A stretch of DNA of 64,000 nucleotides from an uncultured archaeon (GTDB lineage Archaea; Micrarchaeota; Micrarchaeia; Micrarchaeales; CABMGC01): assembly GCA_963729635.1 (NCBI GenBank), contig CAVSOP010000006.1, forward strand, positions 27,283 through 91,282. The letters are read 5' to 3'. The notes under the pieces are model-generated. The model did not search any database, was not told where the DNA came from, and saw only the letters and a program-made list of their open reading frames with translations. Below are positions 25,872 to 52,951 of this stretch, piece by piece (position 1 is the stretch's first letter; each line of letters opens with the position of its first letter). The position numbers and the translations under genes were made by a program.

Positions 25872-25875
25872 TTTC

Positions 25876-25928: not shown

Positions 25929-26078
25929 CGTTTTTGGCCCGTACTTCCAATACTTCAAGCGCCAGGGGAGGGCCTTCCACGGGGATAATTGACAGAAAAG
26001 GCTATAAATGTTGAAAATGTAATGGGCAGGTGGCCTTCTGAAGGCGGAGGCGTTCCAGTTCCTGACGCAGTGATTACG

Positions 26079-37139: not shown

Positions 37140-37141
37140 GA

Positions 37142-37836
37142 GTGGCGGACGGGACCGACTACGAGAAGGCCGTCTCCCTTATAGGGACGCGGCGCGCCGC
37201 AGGCGGGGCCGGGCCAGGTCGCGATAGACCTGGACGACCGTGCTCTCCGACAAGATAGGCATAAGGCGCGTCGATTACTCCGAGGTCGAGCGGCCTCCTG
37301 GAGAGCCTCGAGGCCAAGAAGGCGGAGCGAGGCGGGCGAGACCACGTCCAAGCAGAGGGTTCAGAAGAACGTTGAGCTGGGGAAGGCGCATCATCGGCAA
37401 GGGCGTCTCCGGGGCGGAGACGGGGTTCGGCAGGGCGGCGTCGCTGCTCGGGAAGGAGTTCGGGGAATCGTCGAGGGGCAGTGCCATAGCCGCGAGGCGC
37501 CGCAAGGGGGCTGGGCCGCGCGGCGAGATCCGTGGAGAGGGAGTTCGCCGAGGCGGTGAAGCAGGGACCGCCGGAAGGTCGGGCGAACGGGCCTGGTGCT
37601 GCCGAGGCTCTCGCTGCAGGACCAGCTCTCCGAGCTGGAGAAGATCGAGGCTGGGCTCGACAGGGGCGCGTTCAGCGCGGACCAGAAGAGGACGATAATG
37701 AGCGAGATAGTCGGGCCTGGACGCGGCCGCCGCAAAGGAGGGCGCCGTCCGAGGCGCGGCGGAGGACCAGAAGGAGCTCGTCGCCCTCAGGGCCAGGAGG
37801 ATAAGGGATATAAAGGGCAAGCTGAACATCAAATAG
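37142..37836 (+). CDS. Hypothetical charged protein between pilus ATPase and platform genes, apparent frameshifts
   Basis: GTG start 3 nt after the pilB stop. The readable tail is LSLQDQLSELEKIEAGLDRGAFSADQKRTIMSEIVG...LVALRARRIRDIKGKLNIK. No family recognised. Confidence 0.3.
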
Positions 37837-38910: not shown

Positions 38911-39903
38911 AGATAGATTTCGAGAGACTGGTATCCAGGGGCGTGGCGAACTTCCTCGCCAGGGAGCTGAAGCTCTCCGGGTCGAAGATGAAGGTCGAGC
39001 GCTTCCTTGAGATCGCGATACTCGGCGGCTTCGCGCTCTTCATCGTGGTGCCCTTCCTGCTTCTACCTCGTCCGGCAGCTGAGCGCGGGGGTAGCGACCA
39101 TAGCCGCGTTCGGCGCGACGGCGATATACGAGGTGCTCCTCTACGCCATGCTCGAGTTCAAGATAGAGCAGAGGAAGTCCTTCGTGGAGAGCATACTCCC
39201 CGACTACCTGCAGCTCACCGCGGCGAACGTCAGGAGCGGCATAGCCCTGGACAAGGGCATGGTCCTCGCCGCCAGGCCGGAGTTCCTCTACTTCAGCGAC
39301 GACCTGAAGGAGATGACGAAGCAGCTCTACTCCGGGTAGCCCTCAGGAACGCGCTGCTCGAGCTCTCGGCGAGCTACAGGTCTCTGCAGCTGCAGCACAC
39401 GATAAGGATGATCATTGAGAGCATACAGTACGGCGGCGGGATGACCGACCTCCTGAACCAGATAGCCAAGGACATGAGGAACCAGAACATCGTCCAGAAG
39501 GAGATAGCCGGCCAGCTGTTCATGTATACGATCTTCATAGCCTTCGCCACGGTGGCGGGCGCGCCCGCGCTCTTCGCGCTGACCTCGCAGATGATCACCG
39601 TCACCGACACCATACTGGTCAGGCATACTCGCGCAGAACCCCGGCGGCCTGTCCAGCACGGGGATATCCTTCCTCAAGATCAGCGCGCCGCAGATAACGT
39701 CCGGCGAGTACTACGACTTCTCGCTCGTCGCCATCATAATGATGACCGCGCTCGGATCCTTCATCGTCAGCACGATATCCACGGGCTCCGCGTTCAAGGG
39801 CATTAAGTACCTGCCTTTCTTCATCATAGGCGGGCTGGCGGTGTTCTTCGTGGTCTCGATGCTCATAGGAGGGATCTTCACCTCGATAACCGGCGTGGGA
39901 TGA
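38907..39903 (+). CDS. PilC/FlaJ/TadC-type platform protein, second half (one T2SSF-like domain), apparent frameshifts
   Basis: ILPDYLQLTAANVRSGIALDKGMVLAARPEF...LQLQHTIRMIIESIQYGGGMTDLLNQIAKDMRNQNIVQKEIAGQLFMYTIFIAF, plus C-terminal TM spans. Confidence 0.65.
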
Positions 39904-39925: not shown

Positions 39926-40105
39926 TTACGTGTTCGCGAGCGCCAGCGCCTGCCACTCGTTCGCGGTGCTTGTTATAGTGGACATTCCCGGGGTGCCGTA
40001 AGTTCCGGAGAAGTAGGGATAGGTCAGGCCGTAGGCGGTCCCGTTGAATCCGTCGCCCGAGTAGTCGTTTGCGTTGCCGTTGAGGGGCCACCAGTCGGAT
40101 AACAC
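39926..40105 (-). pseudogene. C-terminal remnant (about 58 codons) of a LamG pilin-like paralog
   Basis: Translates VLSDWWPLNGNANDYSGDGFNGTAYGLTYPYFSGTYGTPGMSTITSTANEWQALALANT, near-identical to the C-terminus of gene 41572..44203. It includes a 41-nt identical run GCCTGCCACTCGTTCGCGGTGCTTGTTATAGTGGACATTCC. It starts directly at the ATPase stop. Confidence 0.8.
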
Positions 40106-41455
40106 TTATTCCAATGCATCCGCATTGCCAAGCAGCCAGCTACGCAGGTCAACGTAATTAATTCTGAAGCCCTTTACCGTTTCCTTTCCCTTCTTGTCGT
40201 AGGTTATGATTGTGCCCTCCTTGAGACCGAGATCCTGCATGCACTCGATCAGCGCGTCGAGTTCCCTTCCCTCCGTCTCCTGACTGTCCATCTTGTACGC
40301 GGCCTGAATTGCGCGAAGCGTCTTGCCCGCCTTTACCAGAAAATCCACCTCCCTGCCGCTTGTTTTAGATTTCCAGTAGAAAATCTCGGTTGGTTTGCCT
40401 GAATGGCTTCTTCTAAGCAGTTCTATCGCGATGGCGTTCTCCATCAACCGTCCTTTTATCTCCATGAAACTGAATCCGAGTACTGTGGAAAACCCGTTGT
40501 CTATTGAGTATACCTTTCGCGGGCTGTTCTCCTGTTCCTTGACTGAGAACGAAAACCGTTTGACGAAGAAAAGCAGTAAGGAGCTGCCCAGGTATTCGGA
40601 GAAGCGCTGCACGGTCTTTACAGGCATCCCTTTTCCGCCGCCTGACCTTGTCGAGCGCGATATGCTGTTGTAAGTCACAGTTGATGATATGTTGGTGAGA
40701 TAGAATTTCGCAAGGAAGCGCAATTTTTCCTGGTCCCTTATCTTGTACCTGCCGGCGACGTCCTTTATCAGTATCGTATCGAAATAGCTGACCAGAAGGT
40801 CCTCCTTGTTCCTGGCCCGAACTACTGCGGGAAACCCCCCATATTGCAGGTAGTCCTCCAGCAGGGCGTCAACCTCGCCAGAGCTGGCCGCCAGGTCCAG
40901 CCTACTCCTTGCGTGCACGCCGTTGAATTCCAGGAATTCGGAGAAGCCCAAAGGGGAAACGTTGACGATTATGTGCCTGCCCGAGAGCAGCGTGGAGTAT
41001 TCGGAGCTTAGAAGGGCGGACGACGAGCCGGTCACCACGAATGATGCATCATCCCGCTCGCTGAGCCCCCTTACGAACCGTTCCCAGCCGGGCACCTCCT
41101 GGGCCTCGTCAAGCACTATGAGCGGCCTCCGTTTCGGACGCAGTTCCCTCTTGTACAGCTCGTACGCCGCCAACAGGAGGCCGTAGTTCTTCTCGACGAG
41201 CCTTTCGTCGTCGAGGTTTATTATAAGCACATCCTCTTTGCCGAGACCGTCCTCTATGAATCTTGCTGCCACCTGCTTGGCTATGAACGACTTGCCGCAC
41301 CTCCTTATTCCGACCTCCGCCACCACCTTGTTGCCGTCCTTGAGGAGGTCCGATATCCTATCGGTGTAGACATCCCTGCCCACTCCGACGTCAGGCGCCC
41401 TGGAGCCCCAGAAGTTCCAGTCGGACAGAATCCTCAGCAGCTTGCCTTCCTCCAT
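40106..41455 (-). CDS. AAA_14 / DUF4143-family ATPase (COG1373-like), copy 1
   Basis: Intact 449-aa ORF. Walker A GIRRCGKSFIAKQV, Walker B LIVLDEAQEVPGWERFV, VTGSSSALL, GRHIIVNVSPLGFSEFLEF, then a DUF4143-like C-terminal half. GC is lower than the surrounding pilin genes. Confidence 0.8.
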   Translation of the reverse strand: MEEGKLLRILSDWNFWGSRAPDVGVGRDVYTDRISDLLKDGNKVVAEVGIRRCGKSFIAKQVAARFIEDGLGKEDVLIINLDDERLVEKNYGLLLAAYELYKRELRPKRRPLIVLDEAQEVPGWERFVRGLSERDDASFVVTGSSSALLSSEYSTLLSGRHIIVNVSPLGFSEFLEFNGVHARSRLDLAASSGEVDALLEDYLQYGGFPAVVRARNKEDLLVSYFDTILIKDVAGRYKIRDQEKLRFLAKFYLTNISSTVTYNSISRSTRSGGGKGMPVKTVQRFSEYLGSSLLLFFVKRFSFSVKEQENSPRKVYSIDNGFSTVLGFSFMEIKGRLMENAIAIELLRRSHSGKPTEIFYWKSKTSGREVDFLVKAGKTLRAIQAAYKMDSQETEGRELDALIECMQDLGLKEGTIITYDKKGKETVKGFRINYVDLRSWLLGNADALE

Positions 41456-41571: not shown

Positions 41572-44203
41572 TCACGTGTTAGCCAGGCCGAGAGCCTGCC
41601 ACTCGTTCGCGGTGCTTGTTATAGTGGACATTCCGGGGGAGTTGTACGTTCCTGAGAAGTAGGGGTAGGTAACGCTCGTCGCAGTCCCGTTGTTGCCCTG
41701 GCCGCTGTAGTCGTTGGCATTGCCGTTGAGGGGCCACCAGCCTACCGGACCCGCGCCATTCAGAGGTAGGCCCGTAATGCCCCCTTGGTAAAGCAATTGC
41801 ACCTGATTCGCCGAAAGGGCGGTGTTGTAGACCTGGACGTCCGAGATTGAGCCTGCAGGGTAATAGTAGCCCAGGGAGCTGGCCAAGCCTATATCCGAGG
41901 CGCCAGACGTGGTGGCGAACGCGATTCCCCCTCCTGTTGTAGATTGGGACTGCCCGTCGACGTAAACCGTCGCCTGGGTGGCACCCGAAGCGTACGTGTA
42001 GCCTACGAAATGCCATACGTTGGGAGTTATGGCCAGCGTAGAAGAATAACCGACTCCTGGCGTGGAAACATACAAATTGCCGTTATAGATGAGCAGCCCG
42101 GTACCCGTCTGCCCGCTGACACCCCCGTACCAATAGATGGTATAAAGTCCGCTGGTTATGGCCGTCGGGGCATTCACCCACGCGAAGACGCTTCTCGGGC
42201 TGCTGCCGAGAGGCTGTCCCGTCGTGCCCGTGCTTATGTAGCTGCTCTGGCCGTTGAAGTTGCCGGTCTGCGCGTACCCGCTCTGCACCTCGAGGGGCAT
42301 GCTACTCAAGTAGATGTCGGGCAGGCCGCTGTTCGAGCACCTGCTGTTCGAGGTGCACGAGAGGATTCCCGGGACCGGCTGGGGCGGCGCCGGCGTTACG
42401 TATGAGAGCGCGCTGTCCCTGGCGTAGTTCGTGGGCAGCGCATAGATCACGTTATAGGTCACGCCGTTGTCCGCGTAGCCGCTGAGGTCGTTCGCGTTGC
42501 CGTTGAGGGACCACCAGCCCGAGAGGCTCGACCAGCCGCCCGCGAAGTTCAAGTTGAATACCGGCAGGCCGGAGACGCCCTCCTGGTAGAGCTGCTGGAT
42601 CTGGGTCGGCGAGAGGACCGAGTCATAGACCTGCGCGTTCGCTATCATGCCGTTGAAGTTGAAATATGGGCTGACGGAGGCTTCCCCGATAACCACAACA
42701 CCGGGCGCCAGGCTGCCGCTGATGGGGGCGTTGGCCACCAGCACGCCGTTCACGTACAGCCTGGCAGTGGAGCCGTCGTACGTGCCGACGTACTGCGTCC
42801 ACGCCCCGATGGCGGGGCACGAGCCGCCAGTCGCGAGGGCGCTATTACCGTGCGGGTAGTAGCCGGTGTAGACCCCGAAACCCGGGCCGGTCGAGGTGCA
42901 CGAGTCTAAGTAAGTCGCGCTCTGCGCCATCAGTATGCCCCTCGGGTCGCCGTTTCCGGGCCCGAGCTGGTCCGCCCAGACTGCCATCGTGACCTGGTTG
43001 CCCTGGGCGAGCGCGGTCGGGGAGATGCTCACGTAGCTGCTCTGGCCGTTGAAGACGCCTGCCTGCGCGTTGTAGTTCGAGAACGTGAATATGCCGTTGG
43101 GCGACTCGTTGAGCAAGTTGGCCGCCGGCCCTGTCCATGTAGGACGGAGCGAAGGGCGAGGCGAAGTAGTAGCCGTTCGATACCGCGTTCCTCAGGCCTT
43201 CCACGTTGAGCGTATCCATTCCGGGCCCGTAGAGCAGTACGCGCATCCCCGTCGGCAGGCTCGGCATTATGCCGGGCGCGGCGCCGCTGTAGACCAGATA
43301 TGGCATCGCAGGCATGGATGGCGGGAGATAAGTTATGAGGCCGGCGTAGCCGCTTATGCACCCGCTCAGGCTCACCGAGTTGTAGGTCGCTATTATGATG
43401 TTCCCGCTGTAGGGCGCGGAATTGAAGGGCGACCGGATTCCCGTGCAGTTCGCGCTGCTGGTGGAGCTGCTGGGAATGTTGTATATGGTGCCATACGCGA
43501 ATCCCACGTTGTTTCCGGAAGCCGCGTAGACCCCGCCTATCTGCGAGGTCAGGTTCCCAAGGCTCGCGAACTTGATCGTCTTCCATATGCCCTGCTGCGC
43601 GTAGAAGAGGTCGGGGGTGTTGTTCAGCGCTATTGACGCGTTGACGGGTATGCTGTACCTGTAGAGGATCCCCGATGCGTTCAGCGCGACGTTCTCCACG
43701 TACGAGACGCGGAGGTGATACGGATCGGTCTGGAAGAAGACCGGCGTCGTCTCGTTTATGATGACGTTCTGTCCGAGGCCGAGCTGGCCCGACACCAGGA
43801 CGTTGTAGCCGCTGAACGTAAGGCCGCCCATCGCCTTCTGGGTATATCCGGTCGCGTACGCGTCGTTGGGCAGGGTCCCGGTCATCATCAGTCCGGAAGC
43901 GTATGTGCTGAAGTTTGAGATGAGGTTGCCCCTGCTCGGCGCCGCGCTGTACTCGTAGTTCGCCAGGACAGTGAGCGCCCTCGAGGCGCTCTCCTTCGCG
44001 AAGAGGTTCGCGCTCTGCCTCAGGAGGGTGCCGTAGTTCATCGAGCTCAGCGAGACGGAGAGAGACTGCGACGCGGCGTTCGCGTTGATGTTGAGGAGGG
44101 AGAAGGCGAAGAGCGCCGAGACCATGAGCAGGAACATCACCAGCACAAGTATCGTCATCAGCTGGGCCTTGCTTGACCTTCCAAGGGGATTAGTCATTTC
44201 CAT
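41572..44203 (-). CDS. Pilin-like (class III signal peptide) giant surface protein with two LamG-type domains, one apparent frameshift near 43100
   Basis: N-terminus MEMTNPLGRSSKAQLMTILVLVMFLLMVSALFAF. The C-terminal half has FNGQSSY...W.HVA/YVG...LYVNG motifs and GWWPLNGNANDYSGQGNNG repeats, typical of concanavalin A-like LamG (Laminin_G_3) domains. Confidence 0.7.
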
Positions 44204-46369
44204 GTGTAGACACCTACTTTGATGACGTTATCCGCGCCAGTAGTATAGTTCAGCAACGGGACGAAGACGCTCGCCGAGCCTATCGAGTAAGCGTTGGCGA
44301 GGCTCAGCGCCGTGTAGTTCTGCGATACGAATGCGACTCCGCTGTTGTATCCCGTGTTGAATCCCGCGTAGTCGTTAGCGTCTCCCCCGAGAGGCCACCA
44401 GCCCGCCAGACCTGCGTTGCTCAGGGGAAGGCCGGATATGCCCCTCTGATAAAGGGTCTGGATCTGGCTTGGCGAGAGCGTGGTGCCGTACATCTGGAAA
44501 TCCGCCAGGCTCCCGCTGAAATAGGAACTTGCCCTTGCGCTGTCGCCGATGTAGAAATTATAAGTGCTCCAGGACAGGGGTCCTGTTAGCCCGGCTTGCT
44601 TGGCCACCTGGACCCCGTTCACGTACACCGAGATTGCGTTGGCGCTCTGAGTCCCGTTCCACTGGGCGACGACGAAGGTCCATGTGTTGATGGGGAAAGT
44701 GCTCAGCGGAATCTGCGACGACGTCGATGCCCTGTTCGCCGAATTGTATATGTCAAACTCGATGTTCGGCGGGCTCCCGGCCGGATACGCAGTTAATGCT
44801 ACGCCTCCCTGGGTGCCGGGGCTCCCTAGGCCTTCGCCTCCGAAGACCGCGGGGTAGGTCGAGGCGGACCAGCTCGAGGGATTGAGCCAGAGGGAGATTG
44901 CGAAGGCTCCGACAGGTTCGGCAGAGGCCGGAAGCTGGACGTAGCTGCTCGCCCCGTTGAAGCTCCCGACAAGGGTGTTGTGCGCCGAGGCGTTGCCGGC
45001 GACGACGGTATAGTTGGCCGCGGGGAACGCCGCGCTCGAGAGCGCCTCCGCGCAGCCCGGATCGGAGTTCAGGTAGAGGGTCGCGATGGCGGAGAGGGCC
45101 GACGAGTGCATGGGCGCGTTGCAGGCGCCGTACGCGATCACGCTGCTCCCTACGACGACGTAGAGCCTCCCGTACGCCAGTGCCATGTACGGCAGGGCTC
45201 CGGCGGAGCCCGGGATCGGCGTGAACCATGCGACCGTGCCGTTATTGACGTACTGTCCTGCCAGGCCGTTCGACCAGAGGGTGTAGACCATCTTACCCGA
45301 AATCGCAGGGGTTGCACCCGCGAGCGCGGTCCCGAAGGACGAGGGGACCGTCGCAGTCCAGAGCTGCACTCCAGAGGGGGAGAACGCCGCTTCGCCGGTC
45401 GCGACTTGGTATATCACGTAATTCTTGTAATCCGCCACGCCGGTGGCTGAGGCTGTTGTTATGGGGAATCCGGCCGCGGGCAGGCTGTTGACGACCAATG
45501 CGTTGGCCATCGAGCTCCCGCCGAAGTATATCTCAGATCCCTCGCCTGCAAGACCGGTCGTGATGGAAGGTGGCGTAACGCTCCAGAGCTGGCTGGCCGC
45601 ATTTCCCGTCTGCATCAGGAGAAGCACGTTGCCAGAGGCTCTCGCGGCCAGGTTTCCATCGGCCACGATTATGTTGAAGGGGGAAGTTCCTGCGCCGGAG
45701 ACAGTCCATGCGGACGTTCCGTTGCCCGCGAAGAACGAGTACACGCCGCCGTTCGTCGCGCCGAAGATCACCCTGTTGTCGTACGCCAGGATCGGCGAGG
45801 TTACCGCCGAAGGCAGGCTAACGCTCCAGACCGGAGCGCCCGTTCTGGCATTGAGCGCCACGAGGTTGGCAGAATTGGCAAAGACCAGGGTCCCCGCATA
45901 CAGGGCAGGTGTGGACGCCACGCTCGATGCCGTGGAGCTGCTCCAGACGACGTTGTTCGTCGTCGCGTTCACGGCGTAGACGAGTGCTGCCCGCGGCGAA
46001 GTAGATGTTGCCGTAATCCGCCACGACGCTAGTGGTTATGGTGTTGCCCGCGGCGAACACGGAAGAGAATATGGGCTCAATCGGCCCGAAATCGTTGCTG
46101 TTGTTCCTGAAGATTCCGCCCTCCGAATTGCTGCCAGGTCGCGTTGGCGCCGGCGAACTGGTTCGACATCGCCTTGGCGAGCGCGCTGCTGTTCTGCATG
46201 ACGTCGACGGAGGTCGAGAGGAGGTTCGAGAGCGCCGACTGCGCGTTCGAGTATTGGATCGGTGTAGGGGCGTCTGGTTCGAGTAGTTGAAATAGAGCAG
46301 TATCGATATGCTGGCGACGGCTATGGCCAGCGCGAAGATCGCATCCAGAGTGAATACCACGCCTTTCAT
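44194..46369 (-). CDS. Pilin-like protein with PQQ-like beta-propeller repeats and a C-terminal LamG domain, apparent frameshifts near 45975 and 46250
   Basis: N-terminus MKGVVFTLDAIFALAIAVASISILLY. Repeated strands of the type LVALNARTGAPVWSV / VYSFFAGNGTSAWTV / GVQLWTATVP. C-terminal FNGASSYVQLP...GLAGWWPLGGDANDYAG. Confidence 0.65.
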
Positions 46370-46914
46370 CAACTGACCCCGAATGTCTTGTTCGTCCAGA
46401 CGATTATCTGCACCCTGACGGGCGCGCCGTTAAGCGTCGCGGACTGCATCGCGACCTGCGACGCGGTGGCCTTGTTGCTGTAGGGCGGCACGCCCAGGGA
46501 CATCGTCATGTTATTTCCGTACATGACAATATAATACTCATACCCCACCCCGAGCAGGGGCTTGGTGTCCTGGTAATAGACCGAGTTGGAAGTAGTCGGA
46601 CATGGCCATGAAGGTCATGACCTTGCCCGGCGAGAGCGCGGTGCCCGCTGCCGGTGCCGAGGCCGATGCTTGATATTGGACCAGGTCATCGTGTTAGACA
46701 CGTTCAGCACCGAGTTCCAGTTTGACGGGGTGCCAGGGCCGAGTATCCTGTTCTGAAGGCTCTGCAGCTGCGCCTGGAGGTTGGCCGACCCCAGCCCGTA
46801 TGACAGGGAGTACTGGTTGCTTATGCTCGTCCACACGAAGGTGAGGAGCACGAGCGCCGTCCCGAAAATCACCACTGCGAAGATAACGTCGAATGACCAG
46901 AATTGCGCTCTCAT
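46369..46914 (-). CDS. Small pilin-like protein, apparent frameshifts
   Basis: MRAQFWSFDVIFAVVIFGTALVLLTFVW (class III signal peptide-like: basic residue, Q, hydrophobic helix). Its stop overlaps the next ATG and its ATG overlaps the stop of ATPase copy 2 (ATGA). Confidence 0.6.
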
Positions 46915-48185
46915 GGCGATGCACCAGTCATAATAGATTCCTTACCCAGAAGAACTTTAAGTATATTCATTATCTTTATCGTCTTTTCGTCCCTCTGCAC
47001 CTCTTTATCTACTTGCGAGGAAATCACATATCCTTCACGCTGCTTGAATTTATTTAGGAAGAAAAACACGTTTTCCAGTTCTATGCCTCCGTACTTCACC
47101 TCTATCGGAAAGCCACCTTCCGTGACGATATCCACTTCGTGCTTGTACGCGTCCCTCCAGAAGAATTTGGCGTCGAGTTGGCTCACTGCAAGCCATTCGA
47201 ACACCTTGGACCTGTAAAGGTCGTCCGTCTTGTAGGTAAGTTCCGGAGACAGCACAGTGGGATAATACTTTTTGAGCTTCTTCTCCTGCCTTCTGGACTT
47301 TTTCGAGTAGTTATAGAGCCTCCTTATCAGAAAGGCGTCCTCTAGGTAGGAGAGATAATCCGAAGCTGTCTGTCTTGAGATGCCCAGGTCACTTGCAAGC
47401 CTGATGTACTCTATGATCTGCCCCGGGTCCTGCATGAGCATGTTCAACATGGCCTTCAGCGCTCCGATGTTTTCGACCTCGAACGCCTCCGGAATGTCCT
47501 TGTACAGGATCCTCTCAGCTATCCCTTCCACTATGTACTTCCTTATGGCGACCGGATCATCGATGCCTATCAGCTCCGGGAACCCCTGGATTCGTATGAA
47601 CTCGTTGAGTAGCCTCCTGAGCTCGCCCTCGTGGAGCCTGATATTGTCGAAGTGCCTCCCTTTGAAATCTAAGAACTCCGCGAAAGACAGGGGATTGACC
47701 TTAAACTCGAAGATCCTCCCCGCGAGACTCTCTTTCGATTTCTTCCTTATGGAAAGAGACTCGGAACCGGAGAGCAGTATCTTGGTGGTGGCGGAGTGGA
47801 TGTCGTAGACCGTCTTCACCTGGTTCTCCCAGTCGGCGAGCTTCTGCACCTCGTCTAGCACGAGAAGGTGCCCGCCATCCTTCAGGCTCCTCTCGCAGAA
47901 GTTCTCATACTCCTTTATGACGTCCCTCAGTTCGACATCCCTGGCCTCGTCGAATGAGAAGAATAGGATGTCCTTTGGATCCATGCCCGAGGCTATGCTG
48001 TCTTCGATGATCTTGAGGAGCAACGTGGTCTTTCCCACCCGCCGCAGGCCGGTGAAGGACACTATCTGTTTCATTCCGAGATACTTCTTGACCTGCCTGT
48101 AGACCTCCCGCTCCTTGAAGGCCACCTTGAAGTCTCCGCTCCACCATGCGTTCCTTTCAATCATCAGGTCCAGAATCTTTGGCAT
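46911..48185 (-). CDS. AAA_14 / DUF4143-family ATPase (COG1373-like), copy 2
   Basis: Intact 424-aa ORF. Walker A GLRRVGKTTLLLKI, Walker B LLVLDEVQKLADWENQV, LSGSESLSI, GRIFEFKVNPLSFAEFLDF. Clearly AT-richer than its neighbours. Confidence 0.8.
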   Translation of the reverse strand: MPKILDLMIERNAWWSGDFKVAFKEREVYRQVKKYLGMKQIVSFTGLRRVGKTTLLLKIIEDSIASGMDPKDILFFSFDEARDVELRDVIKEYENFCERSLKDGGHLLVLDEVQKLADWENQVKTVYDIHSATTKILLSGSESLSIRKKSKESLAGRIFEFKVNPLSFAEFLDFKGRHFDNIRLHEGELRRLLNEFIRIQGFPELIGIDDPVAIRKYIVEGIAERILYKDIPEAFEVENIGALKAMLNMLMQDPGQIIEYIRLASDLGISRQTASDYLSYLEDAFLIRRLYNYSKKSRRQEKKLKKYYPTVLSPELTYKTDDLYRSKVFEWLAVSQLDAKFFWRDAYKHEVDIVTEGGFPIEVKYGGIELENVFFFLNKFKQREGYVISSQVDKEVQRDEKTIKIMNILKVLLGKESIMTGASP

Positions 48186-48384
48186 GTGTAACCATCATTA
48201 AATCGATTTAATGTTAATCATAACTAACATCAAATATAAAAACCTATTCCCATGATCTTTCGCCACTGGTGTCATCCAATTCGTCCCTAATTTATGATTA
48301 ATCTATGATACTTATATGTCTCATAGAATCGATTCTATGATACTTAGCATTAACATCAAATATGCGATCTGGTGCTCGGGAAAG

Positions 48385-48404
48385 CCAGAACTGCGCCCTC
48401 ATGG
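48385..48404. repeat. 20-nt duplicate of the small-pilin gene start (CCAGAACTGCGCCCTCATGG; other copy 46897-46916, 2 mismatches)
   Basis: Both copies read ATGAGRGCGCARTTCTGG (MRAQFW) on the minus strand, and each overlaps the stop of the preceding gene as ATGA. Only the 46897 copy continues into a pilin ORF. Confidence 0.8.
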
Positions 48405-51400
48405 AACCCATCCCAGAGGTACGCTCGCCGAGGCGCTGGGAGGCATCTGGCTCTGGTAGAGCTGCTGGACCTGGCTTGGACTCAAGGCGGTGCTGTAGAC
48501 CTGCGCGTCCGCCAGCAGGCCGTTGAAGTTGTAGAAACTGTATAGGCCCCAATCTCCCATCGAAGTAGGCCCGTATGCCCCTAGATTGCCGCTCTGGACG
48601 GCGTTGGCCACCAGCACGCCGTTCACGTACAGCCGGGCCATGGAGCCGTCGTAAGTTCCTACGTACTGCTTCCAGATGCCGTTGGCGGGGCAGGTTCCTC
48701 CGGTTGCAAAGCCCCAGCCGCTGGTGTATGTCGCAAACGTTGGCGCGCCGGAATTGCACGCGTCCAGATAAGTCGCGTACTGCGACATCATGACGCTCCT
48801 GGCCGAGTTTCCTGGGCCGAGCTGGTCCGCCCAGACTGCCATCGTGACCTGGTTGCCCTGGGCGAGCGCGGTCGGGGAGATGCTCACGTAGCTGCTCTGG
48901 CCATTAAATCCGGCACCGTACGAGTTGAGCGAAGAAATGAGGTATGGGCCTATCGCCCGCTGGGATATGTAATTCGCGGCTATCGCCGTCCCGTTGTTGC
49001 CGTTGCCACTGTAGTCTTGGGCGTTGCCGTCGAGCGGCCACCAGCCCGCGAGGCCCGAATTGCCTAAGGGCAGACCGGAGATGCCTTCCTGGTAAAGGGA
49101 TTGTACCTGGTTCGCCGAAAGGGCAGTGCCATAAGCCTGGACATCTGCGAGGGAACCTGACCAGAAATTGGAAACCGGGGCCGCGGCATCACCGCCTATT
49201 ACTGAAGGATTCTGCACATTGAGAGCTATGTTCTGCGCCGTCACCGTCTGGGAATACGCTAGATTATTCAGATAAAGGGTAAGGGTGTTGCCTGAATAGG
49301 CGTATCCCGCGAAATACCAGGTGTTGGGCAAGACCGAAAGGGGACTTGCATACGCTGACGCTCCATTCCAAAAACCGAGGGTTCCGGAACTGACGAAAAG
49401 ATTTGCCATCCTGCCAACTGCACCGTCACTTCCGTAGCTATACGCGTCAAGATTTGAGCTCGGGGATTTGTCATAGATCCATGCGAAAGCGGAACTTGGG
49501 GCGTTGCCAAGGGGCAGCCCGTTGGTTCCCGTAACCACATAACCGTTCTGGCCGTTGAAGTTTCCGGTAAGCATGCTCGTGGCATTGGCGTTCACGTTTG
49601 GAATCGATGACGTGCCGGCGAAGTTTAGGTTCCCGTAGATGACTCCGCTGTTGCCATTGCCGGAGTAGTCGTTGGCGTCGCCGTCGAGGGGCCACCAGCC
49701 GGAGAGCCCTGAGCTCGTGAGGGGCGGGCCGGAGATGCCTTCTCGATACAGAGTCTGAATCTGGTTCGCCGAAAGGGCGGAACTGTAGACCTGCGCGTCC
49801 GATATTTCACCGTTCAGGAACCAGTCGCCTGCGTAATAATGACTCATGAATAGGGACGTGACCGAGCCGTCGCAGAATCCGAGTGCTCCGGACGCCGAAC
49901 CGGTTGCCACGGCCACTCCGTTAATGTAAAGGGCATAGGTGGTACCGCTCCAGGTTTCTACGGCGTGCAGCCAAGTGTTTCCAGAAAAGGATGCCGATAT
50001 CGGCCCGACCCACCCTCCATTGACGCATACATATGCGGATATTGCGGAATTTCCATTGTCTTGCAGGGCGAACTGCCCATTTCTGATGAATACCTGATCA
50101 AATGATGGTGAGAAATCATTAAACCAGATGGACGCGGTTAAGCCCGAAGTGAGCGGAGGCGAGAGGGAGTTGCCCGTCGCTACATAACTGCTCGCCCCGT
50201 CGAATTTCGCGACGTAGTTCGGCTGACTCCAGCTCGCGTAGCTCATCGCTCCGCTGTTGCCGTTGCCGCTAAGGTCCGCGGCGGCGCCGCCCTGACCGAG
50301 GTTGAGCGGCCACCATCCGACGAGATTGCCCTGTAGCGCTAGCGTGGCGTTGCCGTTAAAGGCCACTGCCTTCACAAGCGCCTGGCCGTTGTTCCCCTGC
50401 TGGCTTAGGAACGCCGTCGCAATGCCGTTGGAGTTAGTGTAGCTCGCGGTGGCCTGGCCTTTCGTGAAATTCCCGGAGGTGGTCGCGAAGCCTACGAGCG
50501 CGTTCGGCAAGGTCTGGCCGAACTGGTTGGTCGCTTTCGCGAAGAGTTGCGCGACAGTGGTATATGTCAGCGGGCCTACGACGTTTCCGTTGTCGTTATT
50601 GCCGGAGTAGTCCTGGGCGTTGCCGTTGAGGGGCCACCAGCCGACGAGACCCGCGCCGCTCAACGGGGTGCCGGAGATGCCCCCCTGGTAGAGCTGCTGG
50701 ACCTGACCCTGTGAAAGGGCGGTGCCGTACACTTGGACGTTTGCGAGGGAACCATTTAGATATCCTGCGTAATTGCCCAAGGCGAGAGGGCTTACCGTGA
50801 CCATAGTGCCGCCACTAGTAGTGACGCTTCCTTGAACAGGGACACCATTCAAGTATCCGACCATTGTTGCTCCATTATAAATCAATACCGCCTGATACCA
50901 GGTGTTAGCGAGAGGTAAGGTCGCAGTAAAGGCTCCGCCCGACATTGTAGAAGTGTACAGCTCGTACCTTAGCTGACCGGTGCCAGGAAGCCAAAGGTCT
51001 ATGTAAGGCGCTCCATACTGAGCCATAATCCCTTGCGCACTGGTCAGGGAATTCGTTTTGAACCAGACGACATAAGTCACTTGGCCGTTGGAGTATTGCA
51101 GAGAGGATGAGTCAGGTATGTTCACATAGCTGCTCTGGCCGTTGAAGTTGCCGGCGTGCGTCACCTGCGCCGAGAGGCTCACGTTGGTTGCCTGGCCTCC
51201 GGCCGTGGGGCACTGGTAGTCGATGCAGATCGTGCCGAAGGAGTTCTGCACCTCCAGGGAGCCGTTCGCGGTGGGCATGGCGTAGTACGCCGAGTTGGCC
51301 GTCAAGTACGACGGGTTGGAGACCACGCCCTTGACGGAGCTGTACGCCACCGCCTGCACGACCTGCCCGCCTATGAGGGAGTTGACTATCACAGCCCCGT

Positions 51401-51665
51401 TCCGGGTTATGCTCAGGTTGTAGTTCACCGAGCCTATCGCCGTGGCGAGGGGCACGCTCGCCGCGTATCCGGGCCCGGCCTGCAGGGCCGCGTCGAGCTG
51501 CGCGGCTATGCCCTGCGCGATCGCCTGGCCCACGGAGTAGAGCTGCCTGTTCTGCTGCTGCACCCTCTGCGTCGAGACCTCGGCGAAGAGGACCGCGAAG
51601 ATGACTAGCACGATGGAGAAGACAAGCATGTACTCGAGGGCGATCTGCGACTTCTTTAGGGGCAT
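48399..51665 (-). CDS. Giant pilin-like (class III signal peptide) adhesin-like protein with about five LamG-type domains and an Ig-like segment
   Basis: Intact 1088-aa ORF. N-terminus MPLKKSQIALEYMLVFSIVLVIFAVLF. There are four repeats of G(L/W)xGWWPL(N/D)GNAxDYSGNGN(N/S)G, each preceding a FNG/FDG-x-SSYV...LYxNG LamG pattern. Confidence 0.8.
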   Translation of the reverse strand: MPLKKSQIALEYMLVFSIVLVIFAVLFAEVSTQRVQQQNRQLYSVGQAIAQGIAAQLDAALQAGPGYAASVPLATAIGSVNYNLSITRNGAVIVNSLIGGQVVQAVAYSSVKGVVSNPSYLTANSAYYAMPTANGSLEVQNSFGTICIDYQCPTAGGQATNVSLSAQVTHAGNFNGQSSYVNIPDSSSLQYSNGQVTYVVWFKTNSLTSAQGIMAQYGAPYIDLWLPGTGQLRYELYTSTMSGGAFTATLPLANTWYQAVLIYNGATMVGYLNGVPVQGSVTTSGGTMVTVSPLALGNYAGYLNGSLANVQVYGTALSQGQVQQLYQGGISGTPLSGAGLVGWWPLNGNAQDYSGNNDNGNVVGPLTYTTVAQLFAKATNQFGQTLPNALVGFATTSGNFTKGQATASYTNSNGIATAFLSQQGNNGQALVKAVAFNGNATLALQGNLVGWWPLNLGQGGAAADLSGNGNSGAMSYASWSQPNYVAKFDGASSYVATGNSLSPPLTSGLTASIWFNDFSPSFDQVFIRNGQFALQDNGNSAISAYVCVNGGWVGPISASFSGNTWLHAVETWSGTTYALYINGVAVATGSASGALGFCDGSVTSLFMSHYYAGDWFLNGEISDAQVYSSALSANQIQTLYREGISGPPLTSSGLSGWWPLDGDANDYSGNGNSGVIYGNLNFAGTSSIPNVNANATSMLTGNFNGQNGYVVTGTNGLPLGNAPSSAFAWIYDKSPSSNLDAYSYGSDGAVGRMANLFVSSGTLGFWNGASAYASPLSVLPNTWYFAGYAYSGNTLTLYLNNLAYSQTVTAQNIALNVQNPSVIGGDAAAPVSNFWSGSLADVQAYGTALSANQVQSLYQEGISGLPLGNSGLAGWWPLDGNAQDYSGNGNNGTAIAANYISQRAIGPYLISSLNSYGAGFNGQSSYVSISPTALAQGNQVTMAVWADQLGPGNSARSVMMSQYATYLDACNSGAPTFATYTSGWGFATGGTCPANGIWKQYVGTYDGSMARLYVNGVLVANAVQSGNLGAYGPTSMGDWGLYSFYNFNGLLADAQVYSTALSPSQVQQLYQSQMPPSASASVPLGWVP

Positions 51666-51666
51666 C

Positions 51667-52149
51667 CTACACCTTTGGAGACATGTAAACGCACGGTACC
51701 ACGCTCCCTGGGAGGCTGCTCGGGCAGGCGGAAGTGGATGTCACGTTGACGAAGTAGGTACCGGCCGAGCTTATGCCGCCGAGGGAGCCGCTCACCGAGG
51801 CGGGGGTGTAAGCCGTCACATAGCTGAGCCCCGACGGCGAGCTGACTCCGAATATTATCTCGTGCCCCACAGCGTTGTTTAGATTGCCGACGTAGATGTA
51901 CCTGACGTTCGGGGGTATCGATATCTGCACGACCTGCTTGGCCAGGGCGCCCTCGCTGCCCACGAGCGTGGCGGCGCTGGCGAGCTTGCTCGCCGCCTGC
52001 TGCGCCTCTATTGACGATAGCGAGGCGTTGGCGTTCGAGAGCTGCAGGAAGGCGATCACCACGAGGGGCATCAGGACGGCTAGCCCGAAGGATAGCGTTA
52101 TGAGAAGCTCGAAACTCGATTGGAGGCGCCCGCCCCTATTCCTCGCCAT
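51667..52149 (-). CDS. Pilin-like protein (class III signal peptide), first gene of the pilin operon
   Basis: MARNRGGRLQSSFELLITLSFGLAVLMPLVVIAFL resembles the archaeal type IV pilin N-terminus (basic-G, Q, S, x, E then hydrophobic helix). Its stop is 1 nt before the giant gene start. Confidence 0.65.
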   Translation of the reverse strand: MARNRGGRLQSSFELLITLSFGLAVLMPLVVIAFLQLSNANASLSSIEAQQAASKLASAATLVGSEGALAKQVVQISIPPNVRYIYVGNLNNAVGHEIIFGVSSPSGLSYVTAYTPASVSGSLGGISSAGTYFVNVTSTSACPSSLPGSVVPCVYMSPKV

Positions 52150-52945: not shown

Positions 52946-52951
52946 GACGCC

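What the first reader, a model, noticed from the sequence alone, without database searches (positions are those of the whole stretch)
41572..52149. Operon of five pilin-like proteins, three of them giant LamG / PQQ-propeller fusions: candidate adhesive pilus tip or host-attachment apparatus
All five minus-strand genes start with a short basic stretch followed by Q/hydrophobic helix N-termini: RLQSSFELLITLSF, KKSQIALEYMLVFSIVLVIF, MRAQFWSFDVIFAVVIF, KGVVFTLDAIFALAIAV and SKAQLMTILVLVMFLL. This is the class III signal peptide/pilin pattern. Two are small (about 160-180 aa). The other three are about 725, 875 and 1088 aa. They append lectin-type LamG domains (up to about five, each introduced by GWWPLNGNAxDYSGNGNNG), an Ig-like segment, and in one case PQQ-type beta-propeller blades. 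Genes are translationally coupled (overlapping ATGA or 1-nt gaps). Pilins carrying such large carbohydrate-binding arrays suggest a pilus specialised for binding glycans. The target could be another cell's surface, as expected for episymbiotic archaea, or polysaccharide. I am not aware of a characterised system of this composition.
Basis: partly seen in the sequence, partly recalled or inferred. Interest (0 to 1): 0.75.

Follow-up and report, generated by a model that had tools for sequence, protein, structure and literature searches.

The report
Lectin-carrying pilin operon of Micrarchaeota
A tiny symbiotic archaeon (Micrarchaeota) carries, next to its pilus-assembly genes, a conserved set of five pilin-like genes, three of which bear fast-evolving lectin-type (LamG) and propeller domains; they most likely build the sticky end of a type IV pilus, a design already known in outline from bacteria and predicted for other archaea.

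Summary
Five minus-strand genes (A 160 aa, B 1088, C about 181, D 723, E 876) start with the quoted N-termini. B, D and E carry 4, 1 and 2 Laminin_G_3 domains, and D also has a PQQ propeller.

Three corrections apply:
- C, D and E are broken by seven frameshifts in this window. An intact copy of the locus has the same gene lengths, so these are probably assembly errors.
- An unrelated AAA_14/DUF4143 gene sits between B and C. A second one follows E.
- B has four LamG domains, not five.

The pilin reading holds up. Across 37-80 species-level Micrarchaeota loci, each family has a variable basic leader. It is followed by [KR]-[GAL] and a nearly invariant hydrophobic N-terminus (Q+1; E/D at +5 or +6). 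The AlphaFold model of A is a helix-plus-beta-head "lollipop". In 32 of 62 informative loci, two T2SSF genes follow the pilin genes directly; where the flank reaches further, a T2SSE ATPase follows them.

LamG modules are the fastest-evolving parts (25-28% mean identity, against 42-50% for the pilin modules).

Precedents exist:
- Streptococcus sanguinis PilC, a lectin-carrying modular pilin.
- The clade 1 archaeal type IV pilus model of Makarova et al. (2016).
- LamG genes linked to pilus loci in Mia14 (Golyshina et al. 2017).

Verdict: a new variant of a known kind. The adhesive function is untested.

The parts
51670..52149 (-). Gene A, 160 aa. Small pilin-like protein (leader MARNRGGRL | QSSFELLITL...). 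The most conserved member of the set and the candidate core or major subunit.
   Evidence: Q10, S11, S12, E14, L15 and L16 are invariant in 48 homologs, while the leader varies. The AF2 model has pLDDT 88, with a helix at 11-66 plus a six-strand beta head. 102 species-level genomes encode a relative. A profile search found 436 clusters, and the distant members start with KG|QVSMEYL-type motifs.
48402..51665 (-). Gene B, 1088 aa, intact. Leader MPLKKS | QIALEYM, then a pilin-like head (to about residue 170). Then LamG1 (174-340), an Ig-like segment (about 365-445), LamG2 (488-655), LamG3 (703-873) and LamG4 (920-1088).
   Evidence: Laminin_G_3 with 4 stretches, E 9e-64; Big_1 is sub-threshold. 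The N-terminus matches PF04021 Class_IIIsignal at E 0.0074, below the cut-off. In 69 orthologs, Q+1 is 100%, A/S+3 99% and E/D+5 99%.
46911..48185 (-). AAA_14/DUF4143 ATPase gene, 424 aa, inserted between B and C. Not a pilin and not part of the core system.
   Evidence: Pfam AAA_14 and DUF4143. PADLOC candidate defence family PDC-S01, E 1e-59. GC 0.505 against 0.59-0.62 for the pilin genes. Absent at this position in L002, L006 and L008.
46372..46914 (-). Gene C, about 181 aa. Small pilin-like protein (MRA | QFWSFDVIFA). Three +1 frameshifts in the window, at about 46672, 46643 and 46596.
   Evidence: Frame analysis. The intact ortholog is 179-181 aa. In 48 orthologs, Q+1, S+4, D+6 and F+9 are all 100%.
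44197..46369 (-). Gene D, 723 aa after joining frames. Leader MKG | VVFTLDAIFA, an N-domain, a PQQ-type beta-propeller (about 131-450), one LamG (469-655) and a conserved tail. Frameshifts at about 46264, 46118 and 45984.
   Evidence: PQQ_2 60.9 bits and Laminin_G_3 80.6 bits. Reconstruction gives 723 aa, the same as the intact ENA copy. In 41 orthologs, K-2 is 97% and F+3, D+6 and F+9 are 100%. The N-terminal helices of C and D match at 92% hhalign probability.
41575..44203 (-). Gene E, 876 aa after joining frames. Leader ...SSKA | QLMTILVLV, with no acidic residue in the helix. Then an unassigned N-domain of about 330 aa, LamG1 (384-560), a Cys-containing linker, LamG2 (649-820) and a tail. 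One frameshift at about 43120.
   Evidence: Laminin_G_3 with 2 stretches. Reconstruction gives 876 aa, the same as the intact ENA copy. In 37 orthologs, K/R-2 is 91%, G/A-1 88% and M+3 89%. The N-domain model is poor (pLDDT 55) and has no fold match.
40106..41455 (-). Second AAA_14/DUF4143 gene, 449 aa, inserted downstream of E.
   Evidence: Pfam. PADLOC PDC-S01, E 3e-106. 25% identical to the first copy; GC 0.541.
39928..40102 (-). Remnant second copy of the E C-terminal tail (58 codons, from SDWWPLNGNANDYSG to ANT, then a stop).
   Evidence: Direct repeat D6, 81% identical to 41574-41740. Translation. It matches the L002 E tail at 69%.
38907..39897 (+). T2SSF/TadC-like platform protein 2 (one frameshift), convergent with the pilin genes.
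   Evidence: Pfam T2SSF. tblastn with L002 F2 covers residues 1-330 in two frames.
37867..38899 (+). T2SSF/TadC-like platform protein 1 (frameshifted).
   Evidence: Pfam T2SSF, E 7e-14. tblastn with L002 F1.
37154..37833 (+). Conserved gene of about 203-227 aa with unknown function, lying between the ATPase and the platform genes (frameshifted).
   Evidence: tblastn with the L002 227-aa protein, in three frames. It holds the same position in L002 and L007 and in seven short-variant loci.
35609..37140 (+). T2SSE-family secretion ATPase (FlaI/TadA-like), with two frameshifts.
   Evidence: Pfam T2SSE, partial hit. tblastn with the L002 ATPase shows frames 2, 3, 2 at up to 95% identity. The L002 ortholog scores 252 bits against NCBIfam FlaI and 143 bits against BasE, both below their cut-offs.

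Best explanation
The five genes encode the pilin set of an archaeal type IV pilus of the Epd-like kind: one ATPase, two TadC platform proteins, and Q-x-S/A-x-E class III signals.

**Proposed steps**
1. Each protein is made with a short basic leader.
2. A PibD/FlaK/EppA-type prepilin peptidase, encoded elsewhere in the genome, removes the leader just before the conserved Q or hydrophobic +1 residue.
3. The hydrophobic N-terminal helix stays in the membrane.
4. The convergently encoded T2SSE ATPase and the two T2SSF proteins extract it into a helical filament.

**Proposed roles**
- A is small, the most conserved, and is present even where B-E are absent. It is the core or major subunit candidate.
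- C is a small minor pilin.
- B, D and E are modular minor pilins. The pilin module is the carrier. The appended 4, 1 and 2 LamG jelly-rolls, the Ig-like segment and the PQQ propeller are the working, ligand-binding parts.
- Modules of 600-900 residues cannot be packed along a filament shaft. These three most likely sit in a tip (assembly-priming) complex.
- E lacks the acidic helix residue, like bacterial GspK, and may be the outermost subunit.
- The LamG modules diverge about twice as fast as their scaffolds and show exchange between genes. This fits recognition of a variable target, most plausibly surface glycans or glycoproteins of the host archaeon of these episymbionts.

**Shown:** gene content, domain families, motif conservation, linkage to the assembly genes, the lollipop model of A, and the differences in evolutionary rate.

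**Inferred:** leader cleavage, filament formation, tip location, ligand class, and the role in host attachment.
For: Identity of the parts:
- Laminin_G_3 and PQQ_2 score above Pfam cut-offs.
- T2SSE and two T2SSF genes are convergent with the pilin genes.

Class III pattern in species-level relatives:
- A (n=80): K/R at -2 in 87%; QSSFEL at +1 to +6 in 86-95%.
- B (n=69): K/R at -2 in 99%; Q+1 in 100%; E/D+5 in 99%.
- C (n=48) and D (n=41): leader M-K-[AGL]; D+6 and F+9 in 100%.
- E (n=37): K/R at -2 in 91%; G/A at -1 in 88%.
- Leaders vary in length from 2 to 27 residues, whereas the mature N-termini do not vary.

Other evidence for the pilin reading:
- The B N-terminus, and six of ten distant A homologs, have PF04021 Class_IIIsignal as their best or only Pfam hit, though below the cut-off.
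- The AF2 model of A has pLDDT 88, with a 56-residue N-terminal helix plus a beta head and two invariant C-terminal cysteines.
- Similarity among the five families is confined to the N-terminal helix, as among pilins generally (hhalign: C-D 92%, A-B 65%, B-C 61%).

Linkage, from 62 informative loci out of 80:
- 25 have A-B-C-D-E followed by convergent T2SSF.
- 7 have A-B-C followed by T2SSF-T2SSF-x227-ATPase (5 of them also x398).
- 16 more have A-B-C-D(-E) with the flank ending.

Module variability:
- Mean pairwise identity is 25-28% for LamG. It is 42-50% for the pilin helices and heads of B to E, 42% for Ig, and 39-45% for linkers and tails.
- Against the closest relative, LamG is 31-39% identical while the scaffolds are 66-75%.
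- B-LamG4 and E-LamG1 are 65% identical to each other.

Surface-protein character: charged residues make up only 5-7% of each protein, and there are 2-13 N-x-S/T sequons per protein.

Precedents:
- PilC of S. sanguinis (PMC9934059).
- The clade 1 model (PMC4858521).
- Mia14 has one FlaK-like peptidase, a Methanococci/Thermococci-type pilus locus with two TadC, and LamG genes linked to pilus loci (PMC5498576 and its Supplementary Table 2).
- A distant A-type module heads a 1766-aa protein next to T2SSE plus two T2SSF in another archaeon.
Against: - No prepilin peptidase gene was found in the window or in the fetched loci (motif scan), so processing rests on the literature for a related genome.
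- No Pfam or NCBIfam pilin model is matched above its cut-off.
- Foldseek finds no solved pilin similar to the A model (best E 0.03). Sequence search of the PDB finds nothing either.
- C and D carry the acidic residue at +6, not +5, and have leaders of only three residues.
- The -1 residue of A and B is mostly Leu rather than Gly/Ala.
- In one relative (L004) the B, C, D and E homologs lie more than 10 kb from any T2SSE/F gene. In ten loci A stands alone.
- LamG domains are not necessarily lectins.
- In this window C, D, E and the assembly genes are frameshifted. If the frameshifts are real, the locus is dead in this strain.
Confidence: 0.68

Rival explanations
1. A bindosome-like or pseudopilus arrangement. 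The same machinery and class III signals are used, but not to build a long pilus. They anchor and array the large LamG and propeller proteins at the cell surface or within the S-layer, on a short stub made of A and C. This is how Sulfolobus uses class III signals on its sugar-binding proteins.
For: - Three of the five subunits are huge, and no small (about 70 aa) major pilin of the Epd type is present in the window.
- The ATPase ortholog also matches the bindosome ATPase BasE, at 143 bits.
- Large proteins with class III signals are established for the bindosome (discussed in PMC4858521).
Against: - The BasE match is far below its cut-off of 1000 bits and is weaker than the FlaI match.
- None of B, D or E is a solute-binding protein.
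- A has the size and predicted shape of a filament-forming pilin.
- Pili-like connections between ARMAN cells and their hosts have been reported (cited in PMC5498576).
Confidence: 0.15
2. Ordinary N-terminally anchored surface adhesins. The hydrophobic N-termini are uncleaved signal anchors (or Sec signals), and the neighbourhood with pilus genes is only conserved synteny, with no shared mechanism.
For: - No pilin model is matched above its cut-off.
- The -1 residue is often Leu, and C and D have three-residue leaders.
- The B-E homologs are separated from the pilus genes in L004.
Against: - Conservation starts exactly at the predicted +1 residue, and the leader alone is variable. The helix carries an invariant polar Q+1 and an acidic residue. 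These are not features of signal anchors.
- The profile of A reaches hundreds of proteins of about 140 aa that start with the canonical KG|Q-x-S-x-E-Y-L motif.
- Linkage to T2SSF/T2SSE is seen in at least 32 species-level loci.
Confidence: 0.07
3. In this particular genome the locus is a decaying pseudogene cluster. The frameshifts in C, D, E and the assembly genes are real, and no functional apparatus is made.
For: There are seven frameshifts in C-E and at least six in the ATPase, x227 and T2SSF genes. Several database homologs of E also end in out-of-frame sequence.
Against: - A second assembly (ENA ERZ1426829) carries an identical B protein, the same two AAA_14 insertions, and intact genes of 181, 723 and 876 aa.
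- Frameshifts also hit unrelated neighbours: CBS, archaeosortase and NUDIX-UDG.
- Six of the seven in C-E are +1 insertions next to short homopolymers. That is the signature of uncorrected long-read errors.
Confidence: 0.08

Closest known systems
Streptococcus sanguinis minor pilins PilA-PilB-PilC (modular pilins; PMC9934059, PMC8179133)
   Same: - A class III signal plus a short pilin module acts as the carrier.
- Bulky modules are grafted on. [quoted passage not shown]
- Several modular pilins and a small pilin are encoded together, and they are modelled as a tip complex that mediates glycan or protein adhesion.
   Different: - That system is a bacterial (monoderm) type IVa-like machine with the G|F-x-x-x-E N-methylation motif; this one is archaeal.
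- PilC has one lectin module, whereas here there are arrays of up to four.
- PilB carries vWA, whereas here D carries a PQQ propeller.
- There is no sequence similarity outside the fold class.
- The bacterial survey of modular pilins used IPR012902 and did not cover archaea.
Clade 1 archaeal type IV pili (Epd pili of Methanococcus maripaludis and relatives), as modelled by Makarova, Koonin and Albers 2016 (PMC4858521)
   Same: - One secretion ATPase and two TadC-like proteins.
- At least five class III signal 'minor pilins'.
- Large proteins with a ConA-clan domain, predicted to be tip adhesins.
- Q-x-S-x-E type mature N-termini.
- Golyshina et al. assign one Mia14 pilus locus (ATPase, two TadC, a secreted component) to this group.
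   Different: - The large proteins there carry DUF2341, not Laminin_G_3 arrays or a PQQ propeller.
- The major pilins there are stand-alone genes of about 70 aa.
- EppA and a FleN/MinD ATPase are often in those loci, and neither was seen here.
- Clade membership of the ATPase was not tested by phylogeny.
Bacterial type IVa tip complex: four core minor pilins plus PilY1/PilC, and T2SS GspH-I-J-K
   Same: - A set of four to five minor pilins is encoded in one operon.
- One subunit lacks the acidic helix residue (GspK-like; here E).
- A beta-propeller adhesin sits at the tip (PilY1; here the propeller of D).
   Different: - PilY1 is not a pilin, whereas here the propeller is fused to a pilin module.
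- No homology was detected.
- The analogy is by architecture only.
Sulfolobus bindosome (Bas system)
   Same: Large surface proteins carry class III signal peptides and depend on a dedicated ATPase and membrane protein.
   Different: The substrates there are solute-binding proteins. The BasE match of the ATPase is weak (143 bits against a cut-off of 1000).
LamG-like proteins of 'Ca. Mancarchaeum acidiphilum' Mia14 (Golyshina et al. 2017, PMC5498576)
   Same: Same phylum. That paper reports an expansion of LamG jelly-roll proteins (arCOG07813, 18 copies) and states that some are linked to the type IV pilus loci. It proposes a role in host interaction.
   Different: That paper does not describe them as pilins, and reports neither the five-gene cassette, nor its conservation, nor the module-versus-scaffold rate difference. 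Direct orthology with MIA14_0174-0177 was not tested here.

Membership tests
Type IV pilin-like proteins (class III signal peptide) | A short, positively charged leader that ends in K/R followed by a small residue. The cleavage site lies on the N-terminal side of the hydrophobic stretch. | tested here: met
   K/R at -2 in 87-99% of 37-80 orthologs per family. G/A/L/S at -1. The leader varies from 2 to 27 residues.
Type IV pilin-like proteins (class III signal peptide) | A conserved hydrophobic helix of about 20 residues with a conserved +1 residue and an acidic residue near +5. | tested here: met
   A and B have Q+1 and E/D+5 in 93-100%. C and D have D at +6 in 100%. E has no acidic residue, as in GspK-type subunits.
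Type IV pilin-like proteins (class III signal peptide) | A match to a curated pilin or class III signal model above its cut-off. | tested here: not met
   The B N-terminus matches PF04021 at only 16.6 bits (cut-off 23.7). A, C, D and E have no hit in Pfam or NCBIfam. Distant A homologs score 14.8-19.6 bits.
Type IV pilin-like proteins (class III signal peptide) | The pilin fold: a long N-terminal helix packed on a beta-sheet head. | tested here: inconclusive
   The AF2 model of A (pLDDT 88) has a helix at 11-66 and a six-strand head. Foldseek finds no solved pilin (best E 0.03). The E N-domain model is unreliable.
Type IV pilin-like proteins (class III signal peptide) | Processing by a prepilin peptidase (PibD/FlaK/EppA). 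| not testable with these tools
   No peptidase motif was found in the window or loci. One FlaK-like peptidase is reported for Mia14 (PMC5498576).
Type IV pilin-like proteins (class III signal peptide) | Encoded with a T2SSE-family ATPase and a T2SSF/TadC platform. | tested here: met
   Shown in the window, in L002, L006, L007 and L008, and in 32 of 62 informative loci.
Laminin_G_3 / ConA-like lectin-glucanase superfamily | Pfam PF13385 above its gathering score. | tested here: met
   B 214.6 bits (4 stretches), D 80.6 bits, E 110.6 bits (2 stretches), against a cut-off of 27.6. Carbohydrate binding itself was not tested.
PQQ-type beta-propeller | Pfam PQQ_2 above its gathering score. | tested here: met
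   D scores 60.9 bits against a cut-off of 27.6. The same holds in the orthologs of L001, L006 and L008.
Clade 1 (Epd-like) archaeal type IV pilus, Makarova et al. 2016 | One ATPase, two TadC genes, and at least five class III signal proteins in the locus. | tested here: met
Clade 1 (Epd-like) archaeal type IV pilus, Makarova et al. 2016 | The ATPase falls in clade 1 of the secretion ATPase tree. | not tested
   Only NCBIfam scores were obtained (FlaI 252 bits, below cut-off). The assignment rests on the statement about Mia14 in PMC5498576.
Clade 1 (Epd-like) archaeal type IV pilus, Makarova et al. 2016 | Large DUF2341 adhesins, an EppA peptidase and a FleN/MinD ATPase in the locus. | tested here: not met
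   Pfam shows Laminin_G_3 rather than DUF2341. No peptidase or MinD-like gene appears among the called genes of L002, L006, L007 and L008.
Sulfolobus bindosome (Bas) | A BasE-type ATPase and solute-binding substrates. | tested here: not met
   BasE scores 142.9 bits against a cut-off of 1000. No solute-binding domain is present in A-E.

The most novel reading that the evidence does not exclude
The A-E cassette is the host-recognition organ of Micrarchaeota. It would be a pilus tip built from three lectin-array pilins whose LamG modules act as exchangeable cassettes. These cassettes are swapped between genes and strains by recombination (B-LamG4 and E-LamG1; the duplicated E tail). The module repertoire would then set which host archaeon, or which host surface glycan, a given strain can attach to. 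This would be an archaeal counterpart of phage tail-fibre or bacterial adhesin variation, and a parallel to the modular pilins of episymbiotic CPR bacteria.
Probability: 0.3. Interest if true: 0.75.

Novelty: new variant of a known kind. Interest (0 to 1): 0.55.

Why it matters
How DPANN archaea find and hold their hosts is an open question. Filaments between ARMAN cells and Thermoplasmatales have been seen, but their components are unknown.

This analysis turns a single-genome reading into a defined candidate that is conserved across the sampled Micrarchaeota:
- Five pilin families in a fixed order (A-B-C-D-E).
- Diagnostic N-terminal motifs for each family.
- A shorter A-B-C variant.
- Direct linkage to one ATPase and two platform genes.
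- A clear split between conserved carrier parts and fast-evolving LamG modules.

That gives experimenters specific targets in the few cultivated Micrarchaeota: antibodies against A and against the conserved tails, recombinant LamG modules for glycan arrays, and a peptidase cleavage assay.

It also extends the 'modular pilin' concept, so far catalogued only for bacteria, to archaea.

Tried and rejected
1. **Concatenated protein search.** One search with the non-LamG parts of all five proteins joined together returned only homologs of B. One of the three searches was therefore largely wasted.
2. **Fold searches.** Foldseek of the A model against the PDB gave no significant match. The top hits were OB-fold-like barrels at E 0.03-0.5. 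The E N-domain model had pLDDT 55, so its Foldseek hits are meaningless.
3. **Sequence searches of the PDB.** The A profile and full-length B both found nothing.
4. **Prepilin peptidase.** A motif scan (G-x-G-D-[VIALMF]-[KR]) of the window and the loci fetched by then (L001-L008) gave only out-of-frame noise.
5. **Archaeosortase substrates.** B, D and E were considered as substrates of the neighbouring archaeosortase. None has a C-terminal transmembrane or PGF-type tail (sequences), so this was rejected.
6. **Archaellum.** Rejected. There are no archaellin, FlaH or FlaF/G genes, and the FlaI score is below the equivalog cut-off.
7. **AAA_14/DUF4143 genes as system components.** Rejected as core parts. 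They are absent in L002, L006, L007 and L008, their positions vary among loci, they differ in GC, and they match the PADLOC candidate defence family PDC-S01.
8. **NCBIfam TafC match of B.** TafC is a Tat-fimbria subunit of Haloarcula. The match reflects only shared LamG-type sequence (75.7 bits against a cut-off of 410; PMC11821415).
9. **Regex delineation of LamG modules.** It failed in most orthologs. Region-wise identities from global alignments were used instead.

Full report
**1. What is in the window**

The window has about 60% GC. By its closest protein and DNA relatives it comes from a member of Candidatus Micrarchaeota (DPANN archaea). They begin with exactly the quoted N-termini.

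| Gene | Coordinates | Length |
|---|---|---|
| A | 52149-51670 | 160 aa |
| B | 51665-48402 | 1088 aa |
| C | 46914-46372 | about 181 aa |
| D | 46369-44197 | 723 aa |
| E | 44203-41575 | 876 aa |

- Pfam places four Laminin_G_3 domains in B, one in D and two in E. It places a PQQ_2 propeller in D. All are well above the curated cut-offs.
- The Ig-like segment of B is only a sub-threshold Big_1 hit.
- Anchoring on conserved strands gives these architectures:
  - B: pilin part, LamG1, Ig, LamG2, LamG3, LamG4.
  - D: pilin part, propeller, LamG, tail.
  - E: pilin part, a domain of about 330 aa with no family, LamG1, a cysteine-containing linker, LamG2, tail.

**2. Corrections to the observation**

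First, C, D and E are not open reading frames in this window.
- C changes frame three times, D three times and E once.
- Joining the frames gives 179, 723 and 876 aa.
- An independent assembly (ENA ERZ1426829, 75 kb contig) encodes the identical B protein. Its neighbours are intact genes of 160, 424, 181, 723, 876 and 449 aa.
- Frameshifts also hit the ATPase, the 227-aa gene and both T2SSF genes. They hit the CBS, archaeosortase and NUDIX-UDG genes as well.
- Six of the seven in C-E are single-base insertions beside short homopolymers.
- I therefore treat them as assembly errors, not biology. Only read mapping can prove this.

Second, the operon is interrupted.
- A 424-aa AAA_14/DUF4143 gene lies between B and C, and its stop overlaps the start of C.
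- A 449-aa paralog follows E.
- Neither is present at these positions in L002, L006 or L008.

**3. Are the N-termini class III signals?**

Sequences of each family were collected from one genome per species (80 loci) and aligned on the predicted cleavage site.

| Family | n | -2 | -1 | Conserved mature residues |
|---|---|---|---|---|
| A | 80 | K/R 87% | L/A/G/S | Q-S-S-F-E-L-L at 86-95% |
| B | 69 | K/R 99% | L/A/I/S | Q+1 100%, A/S+3 99%, E/D+5 99% |
| C | 48 | K/R 99% | A/L/G | Q+1, S+4, D+6, F+9 all 100% (leader M-K/R-A/L/G) |
| D | 41 | K 97% | G/A/L | F+3, D+6, F+9 all 100% (leader M-K-G/A/L) |
| E | 37 | K/R 91% | G/A 88% | M+3 89%, no acidic residue |

- Upstream of -2 the leaders differ in length (2 to 27 residues) and in sequence.
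- Conservation that begins exactly at +1, a polar Q and an acidic residue inside an otherwise hydrophobic helix, and a basic residue at -2 together mark prepilin-type signals. They do not mark Sec signals or signal anchors.
- Support from curated models is weak. PF04021 (Class_IIIsignal) matches only the B N-terminus, below its cut-off.
- A profile of family A finds 436 clusters in a library of 1.84 billion proteins. The distant members are proteins of about 140 aa that start with textbook KG|QVSMEYL, RA|QLSVEYL and similar motifs. Six of ten have PF04021 as their best Pfam hit, again sub-threshold.
- Profile-profile comparison shows that the five families resemble each other only in the N-terminal helix (C-D 92%, A-B 65%, B-C 61% probability). 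This is the usual situation among pilins.

**4. Structure**

- With 48 homologs, AlphaFold2 models A at mean pLDDT 88. The model has a 56-residue N-terminal helix followed by a six-stranded beta head.
- Two cysteines near the C-terminus are invariant.
- This is the general pilin shape, but Foldseek finds no solved relative. The fold test is therefore inconclusive.
- The N-domain of E could not be modelled reliably (pLDDT 55).

**5. Linkage to a pilus machine**

- Convergent with E lie two T2SSF/TadC genes, a conserved gene of about 220 aa and a T2SSE ATPase.
- The intact ATPase ortholog scores best against archaeal FlaI and TadA-type models, below the equivalog cut-offs. No archaellum genes are present.
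- Of the 80 species-level loci, 62 are long enough to be informative:

| Arrangement | Loci |
|---|---|
| A-B-C-D-E followed directly by convergent T2SSF | 25 |
| A-B-C-D-E with the fetched flank ending | 12 |
| A-B-C-D at a contig end | 4 |
| Short variant: A-B-C, then T2SSF-T2SSF-x227-ATPase (x398 also found in five of the seven), without D or E | 7 |
| A-B only | 4 |
| A alone | 10 |

- In every locus inspected by its gene calls or ORFs, including loci where A stands alone, A follows and overlaps a CBS-domain gene.
- One relative (L004) has the B, C, D and E homologs more than 10 kb from any assembly gene.

**6. Carrier versus cargo**

Mean pairwise identity per region, across 25-77 orthologs per family:

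| Region | Identity |
|---|---|
| A | 60-63% |
| Pilin helices and heads of B-E | 42-50% |
| Ig segment | 42% |
| E N-domain | 44% |
| Linkers and tails | 39-45% |
| Propeller | 34% |
| Every LamG module | 25-28% |

- Against the closest relative (L002) the scaffolds are 66-75% identical and the LamG modules 31-39%. That is no better than paralogous modules within the window (30-42%).
- The exception is B-LamG4 and E-LamG1, at 65% amino-acid identity. Stretches of 81-86% nucleotide identity point to recent exchange between genes.
- The number of modules also varies among homologs of B (731 to 1157 aa) and E.
- All five proteins have only 5-7% charged residues and carry N-glycosylation sequons. 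This fits exposed proteins.

**7. Most likely mechanism**

- Established knowledge of type IV filaments: subunits are held in the membrane by the N-terminal helix after leader removal. The ATPase and platform add them at the base, so the first subunits end up at the tip.
- Given that, and given that modules of 600-900 residues cannot be accommodated along a shaft, the best reading is as follows.
  - A forms the shaft or core.
  - C is a small minor pilin.
  - B, D and E form a tip complex that displays seven LamG modules and a propeller.
- E lacks the acidic helix residue, as GspK does in bacterial tip complexes. This suggests, by analogy only, that E is outermost.
- The target is most plausibly a variable surface glycan or glycoprotein of the host. 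Polysaccharide or abiotic surfaces are not excluded.
- Cleavage, filament formation, tip position and ligand are all inferred.

**8. Comparison with what is known**

- The design is that of modular pilins. S. sanguinis PilC has a pilin module, an Ig-like fold and a ConA-like lectin. With PilA and PilB it forms a modelled tip complex that binds glycans (PMC9934059).
- Such pilins are widespread in bacteria, including CPR episymbionts. The survey behind that statement used a bacterial motif and did not include archaea (PMC8179133).
- For archaea, Makarova et al. modelled clade 1 pili with one ATPase, two TadC, at least five minor pilins and two large ConA-clan (DUF2341) adhesins placed at the tip (PMC4858521).
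- For Micrarchaeota, Golyshina et al. reported the following in Mia14 (PMC5498576):
  - a Methanococci/Thermococci-type pilus locus with two TadC;
  - a single FlaK-like peptidase;
  - an expansion of LamG proteins, some linked to the pilus loci.
- What the present analysis adds:
  - the LamG and propeller proteins themselves carry the pilin-type N-terminus;
  - they belong to a five-family cassette with a fixed order that is conserved across the sampled species of the phylum;
  - there is a clear carrier/cargo rate difference.
- Related architectures exist outside the phylum. One is a 1766-aa protein headed by an A-type module beside T2SSE and two T2SSF (L090). Another is an operon with a 1195-aa vWA protein (L089).

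**9. Verdict**

The pilin nature and the pilus linkage are well supported. The adhesive function is untested, and precedents exist.
- It is a new variant of a known kind. Its interest is moderate, mainly as a concrete, testable candidate for DPANN host attachment.

Noticed in passing
window 46911-48185 (-) and 40106-41455 (-): The two AAA_14/DUF4143 ATPase genes match the PADLOC candidate defence family PDC-S01 over their full length (E 1e-59 and 3e-106). They are only 25% identical to each other. Their GC is lower (0.505 and 0.541) than that of the pilin genes. Each has its own AT-rich upstream gap with short direct repeats. Genes of this family sit inside or beside the same operon at other positions in 7 of 80 related loci. 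That rate is roughly what random insertion of a multi-copy gene would give (my estimate, not tested).
   Followed up: partly
window 39928-40102 (-) versus 41574-41740 (-): A 58-codon second copy of the C-terminal tail of E, ending in its own stop, lies directly after the stop of the second AAA_14 gene. It is 81% identical in DNA to the tail in use. The AAA_14 cassette therefore appears to have entered within the 3' end of E, with duplication or replacement of the tail.
   Followed up: partly
window 48402-48930 (B LamG4) versus 42570-43075 (E LamG1): These two modules are 65% identical in protein and contain stretches of 81-86% DNA identity. All other LamG pairs in the locus are 30-42% identical. 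This suggests recent gene conversion or module transfer between two pilin genes.
   Followed up: partly
window about 35600-56000: About 16 frameshifts relative to intact orthologs fall in the ATPase, x227, both T2SSF genes, E, D, C, CBS, archaeosortase and NUDIX-UDG. There are none in A, B, either AAA_14 gene, archease, or the genes at 56.5-59 kb. The distribution is uneven and remains unexplained. It looks like patchy polishing of a long-read assembly.
   Followed up: partly
window 20000-26000: A low-GC island (0.42-0.49 against about 0.60) holds two transposase genes (DDE_Tnp_IS240 at 20910-21569 and DDE_3 at 21613-22650). It also holds a SWIM-finger ORF and a 796-aa N6_Mtase/Eco57I-type restriction-modification protein (23481-25871).
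   Followed up: partly
window 12275-12405 (-): An Rfam cobalamin riboswitch match (36.8 bits, gathering score 31.5) lies upstream of ORFs 11352-12161 and 9136-11472. The latter has a B12-binding domain. To my knowledge cobalamin riboswitches are rarely reported in archaea, so this deserves its own check.
   Followed up: no
window 52136-53312 (-), and L002, L006-L008, L048, L060, L085: A CBS-domain gene of about 380 aa precedes A and overlaps its start by about 14 nt in every locus inspected by its gene calls or ORFs. This includes the three A-alone loci (L048, L060, L085) whose upstream region was visible. The pairing of a cytoplasmic CBS protein with a pilin gene is unexplained.
   Followed up: partly
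window 54011-55540 (+): An exosortase/archaeosortase-family gene (509 aa in intact copies, frameshifted here) is conserved in synteny two genes away from the pilin operon. None of A-E has a recognisable C-terminal sorting signal, so its substrate is elsewhere.
   Followed up: partly
L001 14212-16548: One relative carries an extra 778-aa gene between C and D. It has a canonical class III start (KKV|QSATEYILTYGW), Big_1 and Flg_new_2 matches, Ser/Thr-rich spacers and a long Gly-rich tail. The cassette therefore accepts additional modular pilins.
   Followed up: no
L090 8001-13301 and L089 6858-12525: Distant relatives of the A pilin module occur in other, unidentified archaea. One is the N-terminus of a 1766-aa protein beside a T2SSE gene and two T2SSF genes. 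Another is a 153-aa gene in an operon with proteins of 2272 aa and 1195 aa (the latter with VWA_2). Giant pilin-linked surface proteins seem to be common outside Micrarchaeota.
   Followed up: partly
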